Assembly (NCBI GenBank): GCA_051294375.1
Contig: JBJCIZ010000465.1
Coordinates: 1 to 14,138, forward strand
Direction: 5' to 3'
DNA: 14,138 bases
Source of the DNA: Paraspadella gotoi
Taxonomy: Eukaryota; Animalia; Chaetognatha
Position numbers and translations under genes: made by a program. Positions 1-14,138 of the stretch are shown one piece after another; positions within the stretch are counted from its first letter, which is position 1; every line of letters begins with the position of its first letter. Under the pieces are notes generated by a model. The model was given only the letters and a program-made list of their open reading frames with translations. It did no database searches and was not told the origin of the DNA.

Positions 1-31
1 TTTTTTTGTGTCGTTGAGGTCGCGGGTTTCT

Positions 32-1315
32 TTAGTTTTGGGTCACGTGGAGCTTGAGTCTTCTCCTATGATATTTTAGCTTTTGGCCGTTGACCGAGAC
101 AACGTAGTGATTGCCGTCTCTCTCGATGACTCTATGTGGCCCAGAATAAATTCTTTTGACCTTGTTCTCAGCCGTTGTAGTTCCGGTTACTATGAGGTCG
201 CGTCTTGCTAAAACCAGATCACCGACTTTGATGTTTTCCGTTTTTTTGTAGGGGTTGTTCCGGGCCGATTGTTTATACAGCTTAGTTCTTTGGTCTGCGA
301 TTTCGGCCCGGGCTTGTTCCTGCCTGTCTGCCCTTTTTTTGATAAAGTCGATTAGGTTTCTTTTGGTAAAATCGTCCGCGGCTTCAACTATCCTTGGCCT
401 GTGCCCGAATTGGATTTCGTGTGGGGACATTTCGGTTTTCCAACCGATTATCGGGGTGGCGTTGAGGAGTAACATTAGGTGTGGGAGTTGATCTAACCAT
501 TTTCTGGGTTGGTCTTCTACTGTTTTTCTGAGTGCTTGTCTAATTCTGCCGATGTCCCTCTCGGCTCTGTTGCTGTCTTTTCTGCCGACTAATACTCGTC
601 TCCCAACTGTATCTAGGAGATCTAGTATGGACCTCATGGCTTTTCCGTTGAGTTGTGTCGCGCCATCAAAGTTAATCTCCATGTAGGATCCGTGATGAAG
701 GAAAATTTTCTCGTCTAAGGCCTTGNNNNNNNNNNCGGCGTCGGCTCGGCGCAGGGGGATAGCCCAGGTGTAAGCCGACGCATTGTCCGATGCTACGAGG
801 ACGTAGCTGAATCCTGCCACTGTTGGGAGATGCATTACGTCGATGCTGAGTGATTCCCACGGTGTGATGGNNNNNNNNNNTGCTGAGGGCGTCTCGTTGT
901 GCCTTCTCGTATCTGTAGCTTTTGCACAGTTTTCGCAGTTTCTGACACATTTGGCGGCGGCGTTTATTAAGCCTGGTGATGAGATATACTGCGCTGTGAT
1001 GAAAGCCGTACGGTCTCGGCCGGGGTGTCCGAAGTGGTTGTGTAATTTGATAGCCATTTCCTCCTTCGGCTTTGCTGGGGGCACAACGAATTTGGTCGTT
1101 TGATTATTGTTTTTAAAGCCTCTGATGATGAGGATGCCGTTCTCGGTGACGTCCAGATCGGCGAGGCAGTTTGTTAAATATCTTTCGGTGAGATTTTTCC
1201 TTTTTTCCATTTTTTTATTTAAGAAATTTTCTGCGGTCGGTCGGTCATGCTTTTGTAAAGTGTTTATGACGAGTTTGAAAAGTTCATCTTTTTTCTGCCA
1301 GCTTTTACGTTGATG
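32..1315 (-). CDS. Retrotransposon integrase (C-terminal part of pol)
   Basis: HHCC finger (LHNHFGHPG...CENC), DDE core (SIDVMH / NFDGATQ / SNRAERDI), GPY/F-like motif (YSGPHRVI), no chromodomain. The frame is open upstream of the track's Met to 1315 (KSWQKKDELFKLVINTL, a typical pre-IN helix) and is the same frame as RT. Two 10-N gaps at 726-735 and 871-880. Confidence 0.95.
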   Translation of the reverse strand, partial: HQRKSWQKKDELFKLVINTLQKHDRPTAENFLNKKMEKRKNLTERYLTNCLADLDVTENGILIIRGFKNNNQTTKFVVPPAKPKEEMAIKLHNHFGHPGRDRTAFITAQYISSPGLINAAAKCVRNCENCAKATDTRRHNETPSAXXXXITPWESLSIDVMHLPTVAGFSYVLVASDNASAYTWAIPLRRADAXXXXKALDEKIFLHHGSYMEINFDGATQLNGKAMRSILDLLDTVGRRVLVGRKDSNRAERDIGRIRQALRKTVEDQPRKWLDQLPHLMLLLNATPIIGWKTEMSPHEIQFGHRPRIVEAADDFTKRNLIDFIKKRADRQEQARAEIADQRTKLYKQSARNNPYKKTENIKVGDLVLARRDLIVTGTTTAENKVKRIYSGPHRVIERDGNHYVVSVNGQKLKYHRRRLKLHVTQN

Positions 1316-2179
1316 CTAAGGGCAGTAGATCTTTTTGCTTTGTGTGAGGTTGCTTTGTTTCCTCGTTTATTTCCGCTTCCGTGGCGTCGATGTCTGCCTC
1401 CATGGTGCTGTCGATCATTACTTCTCCATCCGCTTGTGGCCAGGTCGTCTCTACTATGTCAACTGCCTGCATGCTCGGGACGGGTGGGCTGGGCGTCTCC
1501 TTATTCTTTGTTTTGTTGTCTTCCAGTTTGATGTTGATGAGGTCGAGGGGGGAGCCGGTCGGCGGGGTGTGTGGCGCTGGTTGGTTGTTTGGGTCTCCCT
1601 CGACGCTCTGGGGGCTTGAGGTTGGCAACGTTTGATGGTTTGGATGGGATGTTCGCGGGCCGTTGTGGTGTTGCATCACTGACCAGGCTGACCTGACCTG
1701 TGATGGTTCTGAAGATCCTAACCTTCCTGTCTCCATCTGGTTTCCGTCTTTTCGTATTTACAACCAGCCTGCTGCATTGATTCTTCTTCCATCAGAACGA
1801 TCGTGATGCCCGTCATCTCGTTCAGGAGTTCAAGCTCGGGGTGGCCTAAGCTCCAGTCCTTGGCAGCAATCGTTCTGATGAATGTGTCTGTGTCTTTGGT
1901 CTTAGGTTTGCCATATAGCCTTTCCATGTTTGGTTTTCTTTCGGCAAACTTTTGGCGGACAAACTCGAAGAATTTTGATCTGAACGCCTTTGTATCCTCT
2001 TGAAGGATATTTGCCATGAGGGTCAGCGTTGGCGCATGCCCGGTGATCAAATCGAGGTGTTCCGGGCTTGTTTGTTCTTCGACTGGGTTTTCGGCGAAGC
2101 CTGCTTCATATTGTCCGTCGATGTCGAAACCGGCGGGGAAGAAGGGCGTGTCCAGCGGAGTTACTTGCCCTTGATCAGT
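1316..2179 (-). other. Extra RNase H-integrase insert: OTU-like domain (1678-2050), AT-hook-like motif (1588-1617), Pro-rich/acidic linker; broken by about 3 frameshifts
   Basis: Best translation joins three frames: ...ITGHAPTLTLMANIL...DTFIRTIAAKDWSLGHPELELLNEMTGITIVLM... / RKPDGDRKVRIFRTITGQVSLVS...KPPERRGRPK / PAPHTPPTGSP...EADIDATEAEINEE. Confidence 0.55.
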
Positions 2180-4294
2180 AAATCTTGTAAGAAAGTCAGC
2201 GGGATTGTCTTCGCTCTTGACGAGGATCACTTCCTTTGGTTGACACTCTTGTCGTATTTCGGTAATCCATCGGAGGACGTTGGTGGGGAGAAGTTGCTGT
2301 CTGTCATGTTGCAGATCCATGATCCTTTTAAAATATTGGGAATCTGTGACGAGAGTGACTCTCCTACCGCACGTGTATCCTTTAAACTTTCTGACCATCA
2401 TGTTGAAGGCCAGGGTCTCGAGAATGTTTATGTGCTTAATCCTGTATTCTTCAGGGAAAGACTTTGAGTGAAAAGATAATGGGTACTCAACGCCGTCAGC
2501 AGTGGCGGTGATGAGGCCGCCCATTGCGCTGGTGCTGGCGTCGGCGTAGATCCTGTAGGAGCCATGTTTTATTTTGGCGTCATTAAGGAAGTTTAGTCCT
2601 GGGGAGGATTTGATCTCATCAATGAGCGTTTGTAGCATTGATATGTGTTTCTCCGAGAGTTTGAAATCTTTCTTTTCTAAAAGCGTGAGGGCATGAAGCG
2701 GTTGGGCAATATATGAAAAGCGATGTGTAAAACATCTATAGTAGTTTAGAGAAGCGAGCATCGCTCTGAGCTCCTTTTGGGTTTTGAGAGTTTTGAGTTT
2801 TAGTTCAACCGCTTCAAGTTTGGCTTTTTGAGGCATGAGTTTGCTCTTGGAGATGCTAAATCCCAAGATTTTTATATCCTCTTTGCGGAGAAGGACGCTC
2901 TTGGTCCATTTGAGAACGACGTTCTCATCCCTGCATCTCTGAAGGAGGTCGCGGAGTCTCTGTGCCATGTCTTCCGGTGATTTCGCGGTTAGGATCAGGT
3001 CATCTACGTATACAAGGAAGCTCTTGACATCCGTTCCCAGATCCTGGAAGATTTCGTCGAGAATCGCCTGAAGCACATTTACGCTGTTGACTCCTCCCAT
3101 AGGTAGCTTGTTCATCCACCAGTTGTGGCCGGCTCCCGCAAAGGTAGTGACGGGCTTGCATCGCTCAGCCAGGTTCACCTGATGGAAGCAGGCGAGGATA
3201 TCCACTGAGCATTGGAGTTCATGAGGCTTGTATTGCTCGAGGATGGATGTGATTGTTTGCGGTTCGGTGGCGTACGTTGATATATTGTTGTTGACTGCTG
3301 ATAAATCACAAATAAGCCTCCACTGCTTAGCGAAGGTCTCGTCATTCATTTCGTCTTGACCTTCGGCAATGTGGCCTGGTTTCTTAATGAGAAAGGCATT
3401 CGAGTAGGCCTCGTTCCTGGTCCTGGAGACGATGCCTGCCTTCTCATAAACCTCCAGGTACCTTTTTAGAGCGGCCTTTTTTACAGGTCCCTGGTTTGCA
3501 AATTTTGGCTTTGGCAGATTTTCATTCGTGTAACCGAGGTCAACTCTGTAATTTAAGAATCCCTCCTTGCAATCATTGATTGTTTCTCCGAACACATCTC
3601 TGTATTGCCAGACTATCTCCCAGACTAGGTGAGCTTTTTCTCTTAGGCTGGGGTCGACGTCTTTGAATGGCTTGAGAAATTCTTCTTTGCCTCGTGCGTC
3701 GTGCTTTTCTTTCCTCTTTTGGCGTGCCTCTTCCACAGCTCGCAGTTCTTCTTCTGTGGGTTTGTGGTGAACGATAGTTGTGGCTGGTATGTGGTCTTTC
3801 CTTACTTTTCGTAGTAAGGGTTTATCCCCTGATATATCTGCCTGGACGGGTTCAGCCGTGGCTTCTGTTTCGAGGCCGAGGTCCATCTTTGCCTCATTTG
3901 TGATTAGTGGTCGCGCGAATCCCCATGATCCGGGGTCAGTGTCTATTTCCACTCCCTCGCGGAGTTGGTCTCCATCCACGATGTAGGCTTTTTCATTCGT
4001 AGATTCGATTATCCATTTGGATCCGGAGAGAGTTTTCCAGTAGGGCCGGCTTGTCATGAGTCTGACTGTTCCCTCGGCGTCGCGTTCGGCGTGTACAGGC
4101 AGAGTTGTCTCCTCATCCAGGTTGCCGTGTGCCAGCCATCTGGCGGCCTTTAAGGCTTCATATTTTTCCCTGAAGAGGTGGGTGATGGGTTTTCCAGCCA
4201 TCGATGCTATTTGCAAATTTTCCCTCTGGTTTGAGGGTTGTACCACCCAGAGTTGTTCTGCTGGGCCTGGGTTTGTTACTGCTGTTCCAATGAT
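1718..4294 (-). CDS. pol: pol: end of protease, spacer, reverse transcriptase, RNase H, start of extra insert
   Basis: RT motifs WRLICDLSAVN, VDILACFHQV, KLPMGGVNS and LVYVDDLIL (YVDD at 2999-3010); RNase H motifs YADAS, LETLA, LVTDSQ and NPADFLTRF. Upstream of the track start the frame reads IIGTAVTNPGPAEQLW, the protease C-terminal hydrophobic-hydrophobic-Gly motif. Confidence 0.96.
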   Translation of the reverse strand: MIGTAVTNPGPAEQLWVVQPSNQRENLQIASMAGKPITHLFREKYEALKAARWLAHGNLDEETTLPVHAERDAEGTVRLMTSRPYWKTLSGSKWIIESTNEKAYIVDGDQLREGVEIDTDPGSWGFARPLITNEAKMDLGLETEATAEPVQADISGDKPLLRKVRKDHIPATTIVHHKPTEEELRAVEEARQKRKEKHDARGKEEFLKPFKDVDPSLREKAHLVWEIVWQYRDVFGETINDCKEGFLNYRVDLGYTNENLPKPKFANQGPVKKAALKRYLEVYEKAGIVSRTRNEAYSNAFLIKKPGHIAEGQDEMNDETFAKQWRLICDLSAVNNNISTYATEPQTITSILEQYKPHELQCSVDILACFHQVNLAERCKPVTTFAGAGHNWWMNKLPMGGVNSVNVLQAILDEIFQDLGTDVKSFLVYVDDLILTAKSPEDMAQRLRDLLQRCRDENVVLKWTKSVLLRKEDIKILGFSISKSKLMPQKAKLEAVELKLKTLKTQKELRAMLASLNYYRCFTHRFSYIAQPLHALTLLEKKDFKLSEKHISMLQTLIDEIKSSPGLNFLNDAKIKHGSYRIYADASTSAMGGLITATADGVEYPLSFHSKSFPEEYRIKHINILETLAFNMMVRKFKGYTCGRRVTLVTDSQYFKRIMDLQHDRQQLLPTNVLRWITEIRQECQPKEVILVKSEDNPADFLTRFTDQGQVTPLDTPFFPAGFDIDGQYEAGFAENPVEEQTSPEHLDLITGHAPTLTLMANILQEDTKAFRSKFFEFVRQKFAERKPNMERLYGKPKTKDTDTFIRTIAAKDWSLGHPELELLNEMTGITIVLMEEESMQQAGCKYEKTETRWRQEG

Positions 4295-5603
4295 TGATGT
4301 CTAGATCGTTTTCATCGGCGGATATGTAAAACACAGTTTTTAGCACCCACTTTTGAAACATCACCCTAAGGTCGATTCTTTCGGTTAGGGTGATTGTGCC
4401 TGTGGCGGTTGACAGGCGAAGGGGGGGTCCGTGGTAAATTTTACTGCTGAGAGACCATTTTTCAATGAATTTTCTTGGTACTGTATTTACTGAAGCTCCT
4501 GTATCATATAGACAGCTGGCAGGTACTCCCGCGATGACTGCAGGTATGTAGCTATTTTTCCCAGAGTGACAAATCTTTTCCGTGTCATCCCTGGGTTCTG
4601 GGCCCTGTTCACTTTGAATGATGTTTGTTACTCTTTCAGGGAGAGGAGGCATGTCCTTTTCGTCTTTGGTGGATGCCGGTTTGATTTGGTGGTGGAAGAT
4701 GTTCTCTGGCTGGTGACATTCTAGTTCTACTCGTCGAATAGTGGCCTGGTGGAGTGATTCACCAGTTTGTCCACCTGCTACGATGCAGTATGTAGGATTT
4801 CCCTTATCTCCTGTTGGTCGGAGTTTCCTGAGGCTCGGCCTTTCGTTTCTCCGGTTGGGATTGGGCCTGTTCTTTTGTTTTGGCGGTTCCTCGGTCGGGA
4901 AGGCGAGTGGTAGGTCGGAAAACGGCAGGACGGAAAGTGGGATTTCAGTATCCGGTTTTTTTGTTGTTCCCGGATCTTGTTTTTTAAAGTTTTCGATATC
5001 CTTTCTTTCTGCTCGTCGTGCGAGTTTGGCGCAGGCTTTTGATCTAGAGATCCTGGCTTTTTTTTCACCATCGTCGGCTTTCGTCCAATCTTTCCATCCT
5101 AACTTATGTAGGAATTTGTTTGCCAAGGCAATTTCCTTAGCGTCGAGAGGTTTGAAAAGCTTATGCATTCGCGAAGCTGTTGACCTTCCTCGGAACTGGT
5201 TTGCTGTTTCGGCTAAGTTTTTGATTTTTAGCCTAACTGATTCATCGATGCCATTTGTTTTTATCTCCTTAATTTTATCTCCAAGTGATCTGTAATTCTC
5301 TTTTAGCTTTTTTTGTAAAAGTTCTTTCTTGGATCTAAGATTTTTATGGATAACGCAGTTGTAATAATAAGTATCTTTATTAACATCAATATCATCGGCA
5401 GAGTCAATATCCAGATTTTCCGTTAAGTCTACAATGTCGCGACGATTTCCAAAGCTCGGCCCCTTTTTCCCCCTTTTGTCATCGCGCCAGTTGGATCTTT
5501 TTTCGTTTTTCCAATCCCGGGCTTTGTTGTTGTTGTGTTTGTAAGCCTTTTCTTTCGTAAGCTCTATCCGGGCTGTACCTGTCCCGGCGGTCGTCGCGGT
5601 CAT
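4295..5603 (-). CDS. Gag C-terminal basic region, unknown conserved domain and aspartic protease
   Basis: Retropepsin active site CLYDTGAS (DTG at 4497-4505) and flap LSTATG. A one-base frameshift at about 4295 (gac atc a atc att gga = DI/IIG) joins it to the RT frame. Confidence 0.9.
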
Positions 5604-6927
5604 CGGCGTTCGTAACGGCGTTCTGTTCGTCCTCTTCGTCCTGATTTGTCGAGCTCCTTCTTCATCTCCTTCATCATCTCACTCATATTATTAATCTCCT
5701 GCAGTACCGATCCTTGTAAGACTGTGGCGCTGTTGTTGGGGTCTTTGTCCGTTTGTCCTTTTTGGACAAGGGCGTTCACTAATTTCTCCTTGTCCTCGTC
5801 GGAGACTGTCTTGACAATTTTCTAGCGGCGCCGTCGCCGGTTTTCTTTAGGTAACCGCGCAGTTTATATTCGATTGCTTTACCGAGTCTGCGCGTTTGCC
5901 TTTTTCAAGGAGAGTCGTCCACTCCAGGGTCTCGGATGTGATGCCAGGGACGTAGGGTTCAAGTGCCTCACCAGCATCTGTGCGACGTAGTCAGGGATAG
6001 AGGCTCTGTCTTTCTCCCTGACTGTTTCAAAATTTTCTTTGGCCGCGTTGACAAGGGCTAGGCCGTACTTTGCATGTACTTGAGGGTCACCTCAATTTTT
6101 GCTTCAGCGAGGGCCTCCGCTATGCTCACGGATGATCCCTCGCACAAGGCGCGTAGTCCTAACCACATCGATTGATTGATGGGTTCGATGAACCTGCTCG
6201 CGATTTTATCGCGAGCAAGGAGGGCGCGAAGCTGCTGGTCAACCTTATCGGTTGCTGGAGAGTCTTTAAAAGCTTCGTAGAAGCTGCGGAGGAATTCTTC
6301 AGGTGCTTCGTTGCTCCTCCTTTTTTCGAGCTTGATGGGTTGGTCAGAAGGGTATATGATGGCGGGTCGCTGCGGCCGCTTTCAGAAGGGGCGTCCTCCT
6401 GTTGAGGGCGATTGTCCCTTGTGGGTTGTTGAGTTAGGTAAGAGTTGCTTGGTTGTTGTCGAGCGAGGATGGGGTAGATGGAGGACGGGGGTGGGGTTGG
6501 GCGATTCCGTTAATCGGGGTTGATGCCGTGGTTTTCGTGTTTGTTTGAAATTCGCGATTTTCTTTGCCTATTCGCGGGTTTGGTCATCATTTCCTTCATC
6601 ATTGTATAAGTTCGCCTAGCTTGGATCCGGTTGCATTTCGGTTTGATCCAAGCGTGAGTTTATTTTTGCTTCGCTTCGTCGATCCGTTTGGTTCATTTGC
6701 TGATAATTTTGTTGTTGCTTTAGGTTATTGTCATTCATCAATTTTAGGAATTTGGCGAACACTTTCTGCCTGCTTGTTTTCTTGCAGGCACTGTTCTCGT
6801 AGCGCTCCTGATACTTCGAAAGTGTGGAAGTCCAGGTCGATACTACCGCCTTCGCTTTCGGTAGAACTGCCGGGCGCCTCGGCGGTGCCAGAGCCGTCAT
6901 CATTTCCTTTCTGATGGCGAAGTCCAT
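5604..6927 (-). pseudogene. gag: gag (capsid), disrupted by multiple frameshifts
   Basis: Located between PBS and protease. Manual translation across frames gives capsid-like EAPEEFLRSFYEAFKD (~6306-6259) and an MHR-like FETVREKDRASIPDYVAQM (~6032-5974). Candidate start MDFAIRKEM at 6927. At least 6 frame changes are needed. Confidence 0.75.
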
Positions 6928-6989
6928 CTTCTTGACAGGTGTGGTCGTAGTGGCAAGGCTTTGTCTCTTCTTATTGGAGTCGTGGTTTG

Positions 6990-7010
6990 TCGAATCTACT
7001 CCTGTCACCA
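6990..7010 (-). promoter_or_regulatory. Primer-binding site, probably tRNA-Leu
   Basis: Minus strand TGGTGACAGGAGTAGATTCGA. The plus strand TCGAATCTACTCCTGTCACCA reads as a tRNA 3' end (T-loop TCGAAT, acceptor strand TCCTGTC, discriminator A, CCA), close to eukaryotic tRNA-Leu ends (...TTCGAATCCCACTCCTGACACCA). Confidence 0.85.
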
Positions 7011-7477
7011 CATTTAAGTAAATAGACAGAGATTTCAACATGAAACCAAAAGTGGATTTTATTCTGAGAAATATAACAAGCGAAGAACGGTGTGAGACAG
7101 AATGAAATCAATGCAAAAACGTTTCCTATTTATACAGGGCAACCGGACCAACGACGTGGGCTTCTTTTCCCGATGGCATGAAGCCCCTCTTCTCATTGGT
7201 CAGGTTCCGATGGTGATTCATCCAATCATCGAGTCCTTGGTTGAAATCACTCGAGTCGCCGATCCGATTCAATTCCGATTCGATTCCGATTCTGTTCCTT
7301 CGATGGTATAATGAAAAACAGAGTAAAAAGCCAAAACGATAAAAATAATAACAATAACAACTGGTATTTACATTGGCTGAGAAAAAGATCAGCCATAACA
7401 AGGTCATTAAGGTTCAGGTAAAACAGGTCATTCTTATTGACCACTACGGTACTACGGGTCACAAAGTACAAAGACTT
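7011..7477 (-). repeat. 5' LTR (outer boundary uncertain, ~7372-7477)
   Basis: Directly upstream of the PBS; contains promoter and polyA signals in U3-R-U5 order and a (CCGATT)-like micro-repeat at 7259-7292. The partner LTR is not in the window. Confidence 0.7.
7058..7134 (-). promoter_or_regulatory. LTR core promoter and polyadenylation signal
   Basis: TATAAATA at 7134-7127; TCATTC initiator at 7105-7100 with its A 31 nt from the first T of TATA; AATAAA at 7063-7058; CCAAT at 7199-7195. Confidence 0.8.
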
Positions 7478-7663: not shown

Positions 7664-7677
7664 TTAATGAAACCTAT
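7664..7677 (-). pseudogene. Probable start of the next fucosidase exon, truncated (G|AT AGG TTT CAT TAA = DRFH*)
   Basis: A 54-nt GT...AG intron (7731-7678) in the right phase gives TCG-DRFH, matching the conserved GH29 C-x-D-[RK]-[FY]; a stop follows immediately. The acceptor has a weak pyrimidine tract. Confidence 0.5.
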
Positions 7678-7731
7678 CTTCTTCCGTTGTTGTAATAAAA
7701 TCAATTTTTTCTCCAAAAAATAGTGACTTAC

Positions 7732-7987
7732 CCCCACAAGTCCAGTATCCGCCATGATGACAATAACTCCCAATGCCCCATCGATCATTGACAATGATCT
7801 TGTCCTTGACTGGGCTTTCATTGTAGAGCCAAGTCAAGAATAGCGTGGAGTTCCAATACCAAGGCAATTGGTGCCATGCCCCATCGCTCCAAAGAAGATC
7901 CGGTTCATATTTTTCAATGAGCTCTTGAAGATCTGGATAACTCTTGGTCGTGATAAAATCGTTGGTTTGAAGATTGTTCGCTACGTC
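7732..7987 (-). CDS. Alpha-L-fucosidase (GH29, FUCA1/FUCA2-like) exon containing the catalytic nucleophile
   Basis: cag| DVANNLQTNDFITTKSYPDLQELIEKYEPDLLWSDGAWHQLPWYWNSTLFLTWLYNESPVKDKIIVNDRWGIGSYCHHGGYWTCG |gtaagt; WSDG nucleophile motif, WLYNxSPVKD and VNDRWG; phase 0 in, phase 1 out. Confidence 0.93.
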
Positions 7988-8185
7988 CTGGAATGATTTT
8001 TTTAAAAAGATCGATGGTCAAAAATGAGCCTTTATTTTAACTTTTTTGGACTTTTTTGGCATTAAAGTAAAATTAAAAAGCCTTTGTTAGTATCACTCTA
8101 TGAATATTACTTTAAAATAGATACTAAGCTTAAAACAAAAAAACAAAACAAAATAAAATCAATATCAAATCAATCAAATCCTTAC

Positions 8186-8324
8186 CCTAATATAGAGAGG
8201 ATTGAACCATTCGAACCAAGAGTAATAAACTCCAAACTTCATGTCAGACTTCTTTCTGACAGCATCAGCCATTTCACCGACAATATCTCTTTTGGGACCA
8301 ACATCGAGAGAATTCCAGTTGAAA
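8186..8324 (-). CDS. Alpha-L-fucosidase (GH29) exon
   Basis: cag| (S)[46 protein letters not shown] |gtaag; 139 nt; splices in frame to the 7987 exon across a 198-nt intron. Confidence 0.93.
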
Positions 8325-8546
8325 CTGAATTGAAAGAAAAAATGAAAGAGGGAGGTCATGATAAAAGATTGAGAGGAAATGAAATGAAATGAAAGTAGAA
8401 TTAATAATAAACGGTGAACTTAGGTAATATTTTGCCTGATTAACTAAGCAAAGTGTCACTCAAATTACCAATGTAAAGAAAAGATTTTTCTAAATTAAGA
8501 TAGGCAATTTTTGAATCAATTTTTTTTTAAAAATAAAACAATATAT

Positions 8547-8823
8547 TATGGTGGACTAAAATCCACCGCCCGTTCATCCGTGGCCATTGATGCATGAAGC
8601 GGACTTCCAAACACAACAGCAACAACACTTTCAGGAAACATGCCTCAAACTGGCGATGCACTTTCCGACAACAACACATCAGGTGACATGCCTCAACTTG
8701 GGGATGAACTTTCCACCAACAACAACAATTCACTGAAGAGATGCAACAGACTTCTACCTAGGAGAGGGGGGTATGTATGGAGGACTAAAATCCACCAACC
8801 GTTCATCAGCGGCCATTGGTGCA
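8547..8823 (+). repeat. 48-bp direct repeat pair enclosing a 48-bp tandem duplication
   Basis: 8547-8594 and 8776-8823 match at 42/48 positions; internal tandem units at 8631-8678 and 8679-8726 (tcagg..acatgcctcaa..tgg.gatg.actttcc..caacaaca). Confidence 0.85.
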
Positions 8824-11366: not shown

Positions 11367-12224
11367 TCGTAGGCAGATCCAATATTTTTTGCTCAAACTT
11401 GTTATTTAATACATTTGAAAGGGACTGGTACTGTAACTTCCATGCATTTAACTATAAGATAAATCTTAAATTTGTTTGTTTTTTACGATCTTTAATAAAC
11501 ACATTAACAATATTTATACCAAACTTCTGTTAGTTTGTAACGTGTTCCACCTTATTAAGTATATATGCTACTACCAGGCCCAAAACTGAAAAAAATATTT
11601 TTAGGTGACTGATAGATTAGTAGTTTGATAAATGATAAATTGAAATAAGAGAAAAAGACTCGTAATAAAAATGTGGATGCACAAATTTAAAGATATGCTT
11701 GAAAATATGTAACGTTCGATCAGAAAAATTATATAAAAATATATCAAAGACTCTGCAGAAAATTGTTTCTGATTTTCTATGCTTTGGGTCGCCCGTTTGA
11801 GGCGTCGCCCGCACAAAATGTACAACAAGAGTTAATGTTAATGAATATTTTATTACTGCATCAAAAAAACTCGTAGAAACTTATTTTCATACGAGTAGAC
11901 GTTTTAATGATTCGAACATTAGTTAGAATGACAATATCACAGGAAACCAGACTAAAAATTGACCTTAAAATGCTGATAAAGCTAGTGGTCAGACGGGTTG
12001 ACCAGGAAAAGAGAGAGACTCAAATAATGAGCCTATGCGAGGTAAATTATTCTTCAGATTCAAATCACCCAACATTGCATTGCATCTTATCATCAAAGTC
12101 AAAGCTTACTCGAATTCTTCGCCTCCTCTCATATGATTTACTTGACTCATAATTTAACTGATTATGTAAAAAGATTTAAGATACCTTTGCCGTTTTGCAC
12201 TATTTTTGGCGAATAGAATATCAC

Positions 12225-13066
12225 NNNNNNNNNNNNNNNNNNNNNNNNNNNNNNNNNNNNNNNNNNNNNNNNNNNNNNNNNNNNNNNNNNNNNNNNNNNN
12301 NNNNNNNNNNNNNNNNNNNNNNNNNNNNNNNNNNNNNNNNNNNNNNNNNNNNNNNNNNNNNNNNNNNNNNNNNNNNNNNNNNNNNNNNNNNNNNNNNNNN
12401 NNNNNNNNNNNNNNNNNNNNNNNNNNNNNNNNNNNNNNNNNNNNNNNNNNNNNNNNNNNNNNNNNNNNNNNNNNNNNNNNNNNNNNNNNNNNNNNNNNNN
12501 NNNNNNNNNNNNNNNNNNNNNNNNNNNNNNNNNNNNNNNNNNNNNNNNNNNNNNNNNNNNNNNNNNNNNNNNNNNNNNNNNNNNNNNNNNNNNNNNNNNN
12601 NNNNNNNNNNNNNNNNNNNNNNNNNNNNNNNNNNNNNNNNNNNNNNNNNNNNNNNNNNNNNNNNNNNNNNNNNNNNNNNNNNNNNNNNNNNNNNNNNNNN
12701 NNNNNNNNNNNNNNNNNNNNNNNNNNNNNNNNNNNNNNNNNNNNNNNNNNNNNNNNNNNNNNNNNNNNNNNNNNNNNNNNNNNNNNNNNNNNNNNNNNNN
12801 NNNNNNNNNNNNNNNNNNNNNNNNNNNNNNNNNNNNNNNNNNNNNNNNNNNNNNNNNNNNNNNNNNNNNNNNNNNNNNNNNNNNNNNNNNNNNNNNNNNN
12901 NNNNNNNNNNNNNNNNNNNNNNNNNNNNNNNNNNNNNNNNNNNNNNNNNNNNNNNNNNNNNNNNNNNNNNNNNNNNNNNNNNNNNNNNNNNNNNNNNNNN
13001 NNNNNNNNNNNNNNNNNNNNNNNNNNNNNNNNNNNNNNNNNNNNNNNNNNNNNNNNNNNNNNNNNC
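12225..13066. other. Assembly gap (N run)
   Basis: All N. Confidence 1.
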
Positions 13067-14138
13067 CTCGCGTCCCCCGAACGTTATTGGCAAGTCCTGG
13101 AAACACCTTTCGGTTTCTCGATGAAGGGCAAGCGTCTGTCGGCATCTCGCAGTGACCAACAATTATCCGCGAAGGACGGCGATCTCGCTGCGGTCGATGA
13201 AGGCGGTGGCCGCCAGCGAGCGATGTGCTTCGATTGCCGCAGTCCTCGCCTCTTGCGCTCGTGTCACGCAGAGCTCGTGCCATATGGCCTTGGTGAGAGA
13301 GTCAATGTTTTTTTGGTTGTCCTGCGCGAGCTTTGATGCGGCCTTGTGGAGCGCCTCCATCACCGAGGTGTCTCGCCTCAGGCCTTGGATCCGGCCTTCT
13401 GCGTAGAAGAAATGCAGAGAGGACATCTCGTCGACCACCAATCCGCAGCTGGAGATTCTTGTCTTCCTGCTGGTCAGCCTGAGGGTAAAGGCGGCGTGTG
13501 ATTTTATTCCACTGAATTCCACAAAAGTTCTAAGTCTCGCTCTGGCTTTGCTTTGTTTTGGTCTTCTAGCCTCGTCCTGCGGAGGTGTTGGCGGCGGTGG
13601 TGGCGTTTCCTTCGGTCTGCCGTTTTCACGGTTTGTTGCCTTCTTGCAGAGCTTTTTGCATGCTTTTAAGCGCTTTACATGCGCGAATTTGTCCTTCACA
13701 GAGAAGCTCTTCCATGGGACCTCAGATTCTTTGACTATGGCCGTGGCTAACAGGTGCGTATCTCGCACCCCCAGTGGGGCGAACAACTTGTACAGTCTAG
13801 CTGCTGTGTCTTTGCCCCTGAATTTGATTGCCGTTTTGGCGAAGTTGGCGAATTTCGCCAGGGCTTCAGATGGTTGCCATTTCTTTGTGGCGTTTTTGAT
13901 CCTGTCAGCGGCGTCATTTGCTAGCTTTGCCGCTTTGGCCCTTTCGGGGGCTTTCCTTTCTCTGACTTTGGGCACGGTAATAATAAGTAATTGTAATTTT
14001 CGAAAGCTTTATTAGTGCTTTGAACATCATCTAATTCGTCAGTTACAACTGCGACTTTGCGCCTAAATTCGAATTTATCCCGCCGGAAATTTCTGTCTGT
14101 GCGGGTCTGCCTGCCTTGCCAGCGTTTGTCGTTCCCCC
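13067..14138 (-). mobile_element. Fragment of a second, divergent Gypsy element of the same lineage (Gag C-terminus to start of protease)
   Basis: ORF 13163-13975 aligns without gaps to the pre-protease domain of element 1. The upstream frame reads RRKVAVVTDELDD (cf. RRDIVDLTENLDI). After an in-frame TAA at 13165-13163 the frame continues to DLPITFGGRE, resembling the strand just before a protease DTG, then enters the gap. Confidence 0.75.

What the first reader, a model, noticed from the sequence alone, without database searches (positions are those of the whole stretch)
1678..2050. OTU-deubiquitinase-like domain, apparently catalytically dead, embedded in a Gypsy Pol between RNase H and integrase
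Seen: after the RNase H end (NPADFLTRF) Pol continues for roughly 290 codons before the pre-integrase helix. It includes ITGHAPTLTLMANIL...AFRSKFFEFVRQK...DTDTFIRTIAAKDWSLGHPELELLNEMTGITIVLM and, after one frameshift at ~1745, RKVRIFRTITGQVSLVS. Known: the OTU (peptidase C85/C65-type) pattern is GDGNCLFRA...LRxxxxxxM...FxxYxxxMxxxxxWGGxxELxALSxxxxxxIxV...IxLxYxxxxHYDSV, and OTU domains have been reported in Ginger1 transposons, some Helitrons/Helentrons and RNA viruses, where viral ones counter ubiquitin/ISG15 defence. Inference: all four blocks are present in order and at plausible spacing, but the catalytic Cys position is Thr (GHAPTL, 2027-2029) and the His position is Gln (GQVSLV, 1693-1695). 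This suggests a pseudo-enzyme, possibly a ubiquitin-binding reader fused N-terminal to integrase for chromatin targeting or defence evasion. I know of no described LTR retrotransposon with this arrangement, but could not search.
Basis: partly seen in the sequence, partly recalled or inferred. Interest (0 to 1): 0.85.

Follow-up and report, generated by a model that had tools for sequence, protein, structure and literature searches.

The report
Dead deubiquitinase fold inside Gypsy Pol
A family of jumping genes carries, between the RNase H and integrase parts of its copying protein, a conserved domain predicted to fold like a ubiquitin-removing enzyme but lacking the usual cutting residues, so it likely serves as a binding module rather than as scissors.

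Summary
The finding holds. A very divergent Gypsy-like Pol (RT 22-28% identical to its best hits) has about 397 codons between RNase H and the integrase zinc finger, against 80-151 in 8 other Gypsy proteins. Residues at 1675-2056 are predicted to fold as an OTU domain: rows 1-30 of a 48,161-chain search are OTU-type (Z 7.4-4.2), and Foldseek's best hit is OTUD1 (E 0.008). Sequence evidence is weak; Pfam finds nothing. Eight distant homologues exist (36-53%). None of 6 covering the Cys site has Cys there, and none of 4 covering the His site has His. At least six other sequence types in the same organism keep the domain, with 21 of 30 listed differences synonymous. So this is a maintained pseudo-OTU, not one decayed copy. 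Corrections: the Cys site is Pro (2030-2032) or Thr (2027-2029), and the domain is tied more closely to RNase H than to integrase. The best reading is a non-catalytic binding module; its partner, ubiquitin or other, is untested. My searches found no description of this arrangement.

The parts
4338..4547 (-). Aspartyl protease of the element
   Evidence: Pfam Asp_protease_2 / gag-asp_proteas E 3e-4
2852..3325 (-). Reverse transcriptase core (YVDD)
   Evidence: Pfam RVT_1 E 1.9e-18; best relatives 22-28% identical
2180..2656 (-). RNase H, ending NPADFLTRF
   Evidence: Pfam RT_RNaseH, RT_RNaseH_2; end motif read from the sequence
2057..2179 (-). Conserved connector between RNase H and the OTU-like domain
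   Evidence: Aligns with P0001, P0002, P0005; covered by contigs of other sequence types; low pLDDT in both models
1675..2056 (-). OTU-fold domain without catalytic residues (pseudo-OTU); one frame break in the window near its 3' end
   Evidence: Model residues 49-178 align to OTU structures; homologues; synonymous bias
2027..2032 (-). Position of the OTU catalytic Cys: Pro (2030-2032, helix register) or Thr (2027-2029, loop register)
   Evidence: Register scoring; family columns P/L and T/L/I in 6 of 6 members
1835..1855 (-). W-x-L-G-H-P-E block, counterpart of the OTU W-G-x-x-x-E loop, with a family-invariant Leu and His
   Evidence: D, W, L, G, H invariant in 5 of 5 A2 rows that cover it; aligned to OTU WG-x-E by hhalign and phmmer to 11nq_A
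1757..1765 (-). G-C-K motif with a family-conserved Cys that is not the OTU catalytic Cys
   Evidence: Cys in the window, P0001, P0002, P0003, P0006, P0008; Phe in P0004
1693..1695 (-). Position of the OTU catalytic His: Gln
   Evidence: Gln or Ser in 4 of 4 members covering it; the listed difference in this codon in other contigs is synonymous
1316..1674 (-). Variable Pro/Thr-rich then acidic linker to integrase, with further frame breaks in the window
   Evidence: Other contigs stop aligning at 1674-1682, apart from a short block at 1343-1429; no Pfam hit
35..1315 (-). Integrase: H2C2 zinc finger (917-1069), rve core (617-856), GPY/F-like GPH (134-142)
   Evidence: Pfam Integrase_H2C2 E 4.5e-7, rve E 1.4e-5; GPH read from the sequence

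Best explanation
This Gypsy-like lineage encodes within Pol, just after RNase H, a domain predicted to have the OTU fold that lacks the catalytic Cys and His and is likely kept by selection as a non-catalytic binding module. Shown: position, conservation, absence of the canonical catalytic residues, synonymous bias. Predicted: the fold. Inferred: an ancestor captured an active OTU deubiquitinase, as Ginger1 and Helentrons carry. The triad was lost before the sampled families diverged, and the cleft was filled (Pro or Thr for Cys, Gln or Ser for His, Leu where OTUs have small residues). The domain is made and packaged with Pol and stays on the RT-RNase H side or is released by the element's protease. 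It then binds a host or element protein during reverse transcription or nuclear entry. Within this reading I put ubiquitin or a ubiquitin-like tag as the partner at about 0.4 and another protein, as for FAM105A, at about 0.6.
For: Fold: rows 1-30 of 48,161 chains are OTU-type, best Z 7.4, rmsd 3.1 over 109 residues, first other fold Z 4.1. Foldseek's best hit is OTUD1, E 0.0078, prob 1.00. The shorter in-frame piece alone gave OTUs in rows 1-9. hhalign gave P 6e-4 and 0 of 100 shuffles reached the score. Two of 8 alignment rows hit Pfam OTU weakly (best E 0.073). No Cys at either candidate site in 6 of 6 members and no His in 4 of 4. Constraint: 7 distinct contigs overlap 1899-1917 in run X1; 22 of 30 listed differences fall at third positions and 21 of 30 are synonymous against 0.21 expected; the listed change in the Gln codon is synonymous in 3-4 contigs. 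P0001 has the same RNase H adjacency. Precedent for non-catalytic OTUs as interaction modules: PMC7862380 and PMC10919355 (passages).
Against: The model is of modest confidence (mean pLDDT 53; both catalytic loops under about 55) and every Z is below 8, which the tool says can be a common arrangement. No Foldseek hit reaches E 0.001. The window's segment has no Pfam hit at E 10 and the family HMM barely scores real OTUs (best E 0.04). The synonymous count rests on the 40 best-supported of 116 rows, and alignments need 80% DNA identity, which favours conserved parts. The 8 homologues are short fragments, several degenerate, so loss of catalysis is inferred from few lineages. The family has its own conserved His and Cys, so activity is not excluded. 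No partner has been identified.
Confidence: 0.65

Rival explanations
1. The domain is a purely structural part of this lineage's RT-RNase H (a spacer, dimer surface or protease-site platform) and binds no host factor.
For: Short conserved connector to RNase H; highly divergent RT; purifying selection fits any role.
Against: 8 other Gypsy proteins manage with 80-151 residues in this interval. Repeated capture of OTU domains by mobile elements points to the ubiquitin system (PMC2836005, PMC6431247, passages).
Confidence: 0.17
2. The domain is an active enzyme or metal site with a relocated centre, using the family's invariant His (W-x-L-G-H) and conserved Cys (G-C-K).
For: His invariant in all members that cover it, Cys in 6 of 7. 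USP53 was annotated as inactive and proved active (PMC12037411, abstract start in the listing).
Against: The Cys sits after the I-x-V strand, not at the N-terminus of the helix where OTUs place their nucleophile (established knowledge). One member has Phe there. The region is under pLDDT 50 and I had no model coordinates to measure the distance.
Confidence: 0.08
3. The OTU likeness is a convergent helix-strand arrangement and the domain is unrelated.
For: All Z below 8, identity 5-16%, no Pfam hit.
Against: Thirty consecutive OTU-type rows from eukaryotes, viruses and bacteria head the list; three search methods agree; the W-G-x-E block and helix order match.
Confidence: 0.07
4. The segment is a decayed, neutral remnant of an active OTU in one dead copy.
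For: The window has frame breaks.
Against: Matching contigs show 0 substitutions over 1660-2075; the same non-catalytic residues recur at 36-53% identity; strong synonymous bias.
Confidence: 0.03

Closest known systems
Ginger1 transposases with a C-terminal OTU domain (Bao, Kapitonov, Jurka 2010, PMC2836005; passages seen)
   Same: An OTU domain in one polypeptide with a Gypsy-type integrase; the authors propose a role of the ubiquitin pathway in transposition.
   Different: Ginger1 is a DNA transposon without RT; its OTU lies after the integrase and is recognised by Pfam. Here the domain lies before integrase in an RT-bearing Pol and has no Cys or His.
Helitron/Helentron OTU domains (PMC2836005, PMC6431247; passages seen)
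   Same: An accessory OTU domain inside the main transposition protein.
   Different: Rolling-circle DNA elements; described as OTU-like cysteine proteases, not pseudo-enzymes.
Burro/GYPSM1 giant gypsy-like elements (PMC6431247, section 7 read)
   Same: A Gypsy-like polyprotein with extra domains tied to ubiquitination (MATH/TRAF, Ubi/SUMO-like).
   Different: Those domains are described in the part before protease, dUTPase between PR and RT; that section names no OTU domain and nothing between RNase H and integrase.
FAM105A/OTULINL, human pseudo-OTU (PMC7862380, PMC10318531; passages seen)
   Same: OTU fold with a disrupted triad, thought to mediate protein-protein interactions.
   Different: A large OTULIN-type cellular protein on ER membranes; only rank 20 in the fold search (Z 5.7). 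The element's domain is a minimal OTU closer in size to OTUD1/3 and nairovirus vOTU.
Minimal OTU domains: OTUD1/2/3/5, yeast Otu1/Otu2, nairovirus vOTU
   Same: Best structural matches; the weak sequence hits are also nairovirus-type (11nq_A, E 0.36; L006).
   Different: These are active Cys-His-Asp/Asn hydrolases (established knowledge); identity is 10-16%, so no donor can be named.

Membership tests
OTU deubiquitinases (PF02338) | OTU papain-like fold | tested here: met
   Predicted model only (pLDDT 53): rows 1-30 OTU-type, Z up to 7.4-7.7; Foldseek OTUD1 E 0.0078
OTU deubiquitinases (PF02338) | Pfam OTU score above the curated cut-off (23.3 bits) | tested here: not met
   No hit for the window; P0001 12.9 bits, E 0.16; best of 8 rows E 0.073
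OTU deubiquitinases (PF02338) | Catalytic Cys at the start of the first helix (GDGNC) | tested here: not met
   Pro/Leu or Thr/Leu/Ile in 6 of 6 members; P0001 alone has a Cys two places before the Pro column
OTU deubiquitinases (PF02338) | Catalytic His and His+2 Asp/Asn on the last strand | tested here: not met
   Gln/Ser and Ser/Ala in the 4 members covering the box; no His at neighbouring offsets
OTU deubiquitinases (PF02338) | Hydrolysis of ubiquitin or ubiquitin-like conjugates | not testable with these tools
   Needs a probe or chain-cleavage assay
Pseudo-OTUs (FAM105A kind, as a mode of action) | OTU fold kept under selection with a disrupted triad | tested here: met
Pseudo-OTUs (FAM105A kind, as a mode of action) | Function through binding, with or without ubiquitin | not testable with these tools
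   Needs binding assays
Ty3/Gypsy LTR retrotransposons | Pol order PR-RT-RH-IN with RT_RNaseH, H2C2 and rve domains | tested here: met
Ty3/Gypsy LTR retrotransposons | GPY/F motif in the integrase tail | tested here: met
   YSGPHRV at about 128-148, read by eye from the sequence
Ty3/Gypsy LTR retrotransposons | Paired LTRs and target-site duplication | not testable with these tools
   The 3' end lies beyond window position 1; no genome is held; no long direct repeat in the window
Ty3/Gypsy LTR retrotransposons | Recognisable Gag | tested here: inconclusive
   Upstream ORFs 6058-6381 and 6616-7107 give no Gag family hit
Ginger1 DNA transposons | No RT; OTU or Ulp1 C-terminal to the integrase | tested here: not met
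   RT and RNase H present; the domain precedes integrase

The most novel reading that the evidence does not exclude
A lineage of Gypsy-like retrotransposons has turned a captured deubiquitinase into a ubiquitin reader or decoy built into Pol. It grips ubiquitinated host proteins or nucleosomes, or shields ubiquitinated Pol, without cutting, and so steers or protects the reverse-transcription and integration complex: an OTU-based counterpart of the chromoviral chromodomain.
Probability: 0.27. Interest if true: 0.85.

Novelty: new variant of a known kind. Interest (0 to 1): 0.62.

Why it matters
OTU domains in mobile elements are described as proteases that act on host ubiquitin. Here a multi-family retrotransposon lineage appears to keep the fold after losing catalysis, inside the RNase H-integrase interval of Pol, where Gypsy proteins normally have a short linker. 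That suggests elements can value the binding surface more than the chemistry. It offers a small (about 130 residues), Pfam-invisible pseudo-enzyme whose partner would show which host pathway the element engages. It also marks an RT lineage with no close relative among the proteins searched.

Tried and rejected
Pfam on the segment: no family at E 10. Word-based homologue search of Pol residues 690-860 among 473-1505-residue proteins: 0 of 128 candidates. The profile among longer proteins returned only P0003 of 7,994 scored, so no full-length relative was obtained. The family HMM found no domain in 11 of 11 distant RT relatives (best E 0.085). Locus scans found no true relatives: metagenomes (L022-L025 match only the 8-residue pattern and show no RT or integrase), viral contigs, prokaryote genomes (one 13-residue hit). 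PDB sequence searches gave only chance-level rows; the BDP1 hit is a sum of weak repeats. ESM Atlas held neither query. No whole genome is held. Complex prediction of P0003 residues 1-148 with a giant-virus ubiquitin gave no verdict (score 0.00, alignment not used); this is no evidence either way. No RNA holder was listed, so expression is untested. I first noted that P0003's tail reaches the pre-integrase region by eye, but BLASTP did not support it. The weak Pfam alignment of P0001 starts past the Cys column and does not settle the register. Literature: 10 full-text searches. The 8 on transposable elements gave no paper describing an OTU domain in a Gypsy Pol. Hits checked by passage and found irrelevant: PMC9940879, PMC11943222, PMC7928374. 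Seen only as listings: PMC13403563, PMC11342252. Repbase entries, most subscription papers and all supplements were not seen and could hold such an annotation.

Full report
Setting. The minus strand of 1-7100 is a Gypsy-like element with protease, RT, RNase H, H2C2 zinc finger and rve core in that order and a GPY/F-like GPH motif. It lies in a eukaryotic genome next to two exons of an alpha-L-fucosidase gene. Its RT-RNase H is unusually isolated: the 11 hits among 7,081 candidates are 22-28% identical. No whole genome is held, so copies were observed through contigs of public runs.

Observation. The quoted peptides and coordinates are correct. From the end of the Pfam RNase H match to the start of the H2C2 match the window has about 397 codons. 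In the 8 relatives with both domains that I scanned (8 of the 11 hits; one lacks integrase, two were not scanned) the interval is 80-151 residues. The window changes frame near the 3' end of the domain and again in the linker. Contigs of X1 and X5 cover 1200-2400 in one piece, and X2 covers it in two, with 6-7 substitutions and small length differences in the part where the window changes frame. Over 1660-2075 the X1 and X5 contigs show 0 substitutions. The breaks therefore look specific to this copy or assembly, while the non-catalytic residues are real. One of these runs may be the window's own source; the runs come from three studies.

Homologues. An exhaustive HMMER search of 1.84 billion proteins returned 8 hits, E 1.7e-20 to 1.5e-4, 36-53% identical. 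All are unnamed metagenome fragments in single-member clusters. P0001 begins in the RNase H end and aligns through the connector and the domain (38% over 185 residues), so the RNase H adjacency is shared by a distant family. No distant homologue confirmed the integrase side. Shared motifs are G-[HRC]-x-P-[TLI]-L, D-W-x-L-G-H-P-E, G-C-K and [IV]-[FL]-R-[TS]-x-x-[GW]-[QS].

Fold. Two AlphaFold2 models were made with 8-9 sequence alignments. One used the in-frame 160 residues. The other used 184 residues read through with X at the break (mean pLDDT 53, helical core about 70-85, loops low). The short model already gave OTU domains in rows 1-9 (Z 6.0-4.6). The longer one gave OTU-type chains in rows 1-30 of 48,161, best CCHFV vOTU Z 7.4 (rmsd 3.1, 109 residues) and OTUD1 Z 7.3, with the first other fold at Z 4.1. 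That VCPIP1, A20 and the TYMV protease are OTU-type is my recalled knowledge. Foldseek ranked OTUD1 first (E 0.0078, prob 1.00) with no hit at E 0.001; the second look agreed (Z up to 7.7); the viral library gave weak hits that include named OTU proteins. Independently, the family profile matched 15 natural viral OTUs (fetched; 6 of 6 tested confirmed by Pfam) over 65 columns with P 6e-4, probability 29%, and 0 of 100 shuffles reached the score. Each line is modest and all Z are under 8, but they agree. I put the OTU fold at about 0.93.

Catalytic sites. Scored against the OTU helix after Cys, the Pro column beats the Thr column in 6 of 6 members (mean +3.0 against -7.2) and is the best of nine offsets in 5 of 6. 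With the preceding loop included the two are nearly tied, and the window alone prefers Thr. Structure alignment start points give either. Neither column holds Cys in any of 6 members. The His column is Gln or Ser in 4 of 4, with no His at neighbouring offsets. The aromatic residue upstream of the His loop, which contacts the ubiquitin tail in OTUs (PMC3705208, passages), is kept as Phe in 3 of 4. Against tail binding, the family has invariant Leu four residues into the helix and within the W-x-L-G-H loop, where the sampled OTUs have Ala and mostly Gly. I infer a filled cleft; I had no coordinates to check it. The family's own invariant His and near-invariant Cys keep a relocated active site open as a minor rival.

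Constraint. At 80% likeness, 14 and 15 contigs were laid on 1660-2075 in X1 and X5, and seven distinct contigs overlap 1899-1917 in X1. Of the 30 listed differences in the unbroken frame, 22 are at third codon positions and 21 are synonymous, against 0.21 expected by chance (p about 1e-8). RNase H and connector rows gave 20 of 23. The listed change in the Gln codon is synonymous in 3-4 contigs. Caveat: only the 40 best-supported of 116 rows were shown, and I left out the 9 rows nearest the break. Other sequence types stop aligning at 1674-1682, exactly at the predicted domain end, which marks the boundary independently.

Mechanism. Shown: a conserved, constrained domain in Pol without the canonical triad. 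Predicted: OTU fold. Inferred: capture of an active OTU, early loss of catalysis, and retention as a binding module delivered with Pol. The conserved short link to RNase H and the variable long link to integrase suggest it travels with RT or is released, rather than capping integrase. Ubiquitin is a plausible ligand given the ancestry, but the pseudo-OTU FAM105A does not bind ubiquitin (PMC7862380, passages), so another partner is at least as likely.

Comparison and novelty. OTU domains are described in Ginger1 and Helitron/Helentron proteins (PMC2836005, PMC6431247; passages), and ubiquitin-related domains in Burro gypsy elements (PMC6431247, section 7). Eight full-text searches on transposable elements found no OTU domain, active or dead, in a Gypsy Pol; Repbase and closed papers were not searched. 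Unchecked AI notes from this scan report OTUs in other retroelement positions, none by sequence similarity to this one and none holding all of OTU, RNase and integrase. It is not a member of the active OTU family (Cys and His tests not met). It is a new variant of a known theme: a lineage-wide pseudo-OTU in the RNase H-integrase interval. Interest 0.62.

Noticed in passing
window 13163-14008 (-): A 281-residue ORF homologous to the stretch before the protease of the main element (33% over 95 residues, E 1e-11): a second, related element upstream, cut off by the N gap at about 12224-13065.
   Followed up: partly
window 7667-8017 and 8177-8419 (-): Two exons of an alpha-L-fucosidase gene (Pfam E 8e-17 and 2e-13, profile positions 130-260 of 345). 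The element follows on the same strand and may sit in an intron.
   Followed up: partly
window 3600-4300 (-): A long stretch between protease and RT without any Pfam hit; it may hold another unrecognised domain.
   Followed up: partly
window 1343-1429 (-): A short block in the otherwise variable linker is shared with other contigs, and a four-residue ADGE/ADGK motif recurs in P0003 and P0008 by eye, though BLASTP finds no alignment. It could be a protease site or short binding motif.
   Followed up: partly
window 2852-3325 (-): The RT is only 22-28% identical to anything found and has unusual motifs (LPMG, DILACFHQ): an apparently unsampled Gypsy lineage.
   Followed up: partly
window 7001-7010 (-): TGGTGACAG just before the first ORF may be the primer-binding site; not tested.
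   Followed up: no
window 8547-8823 (+): Two pairs of 46-48 base direct repeats in a G+C-richer island, unexplained.
   Followed up: no
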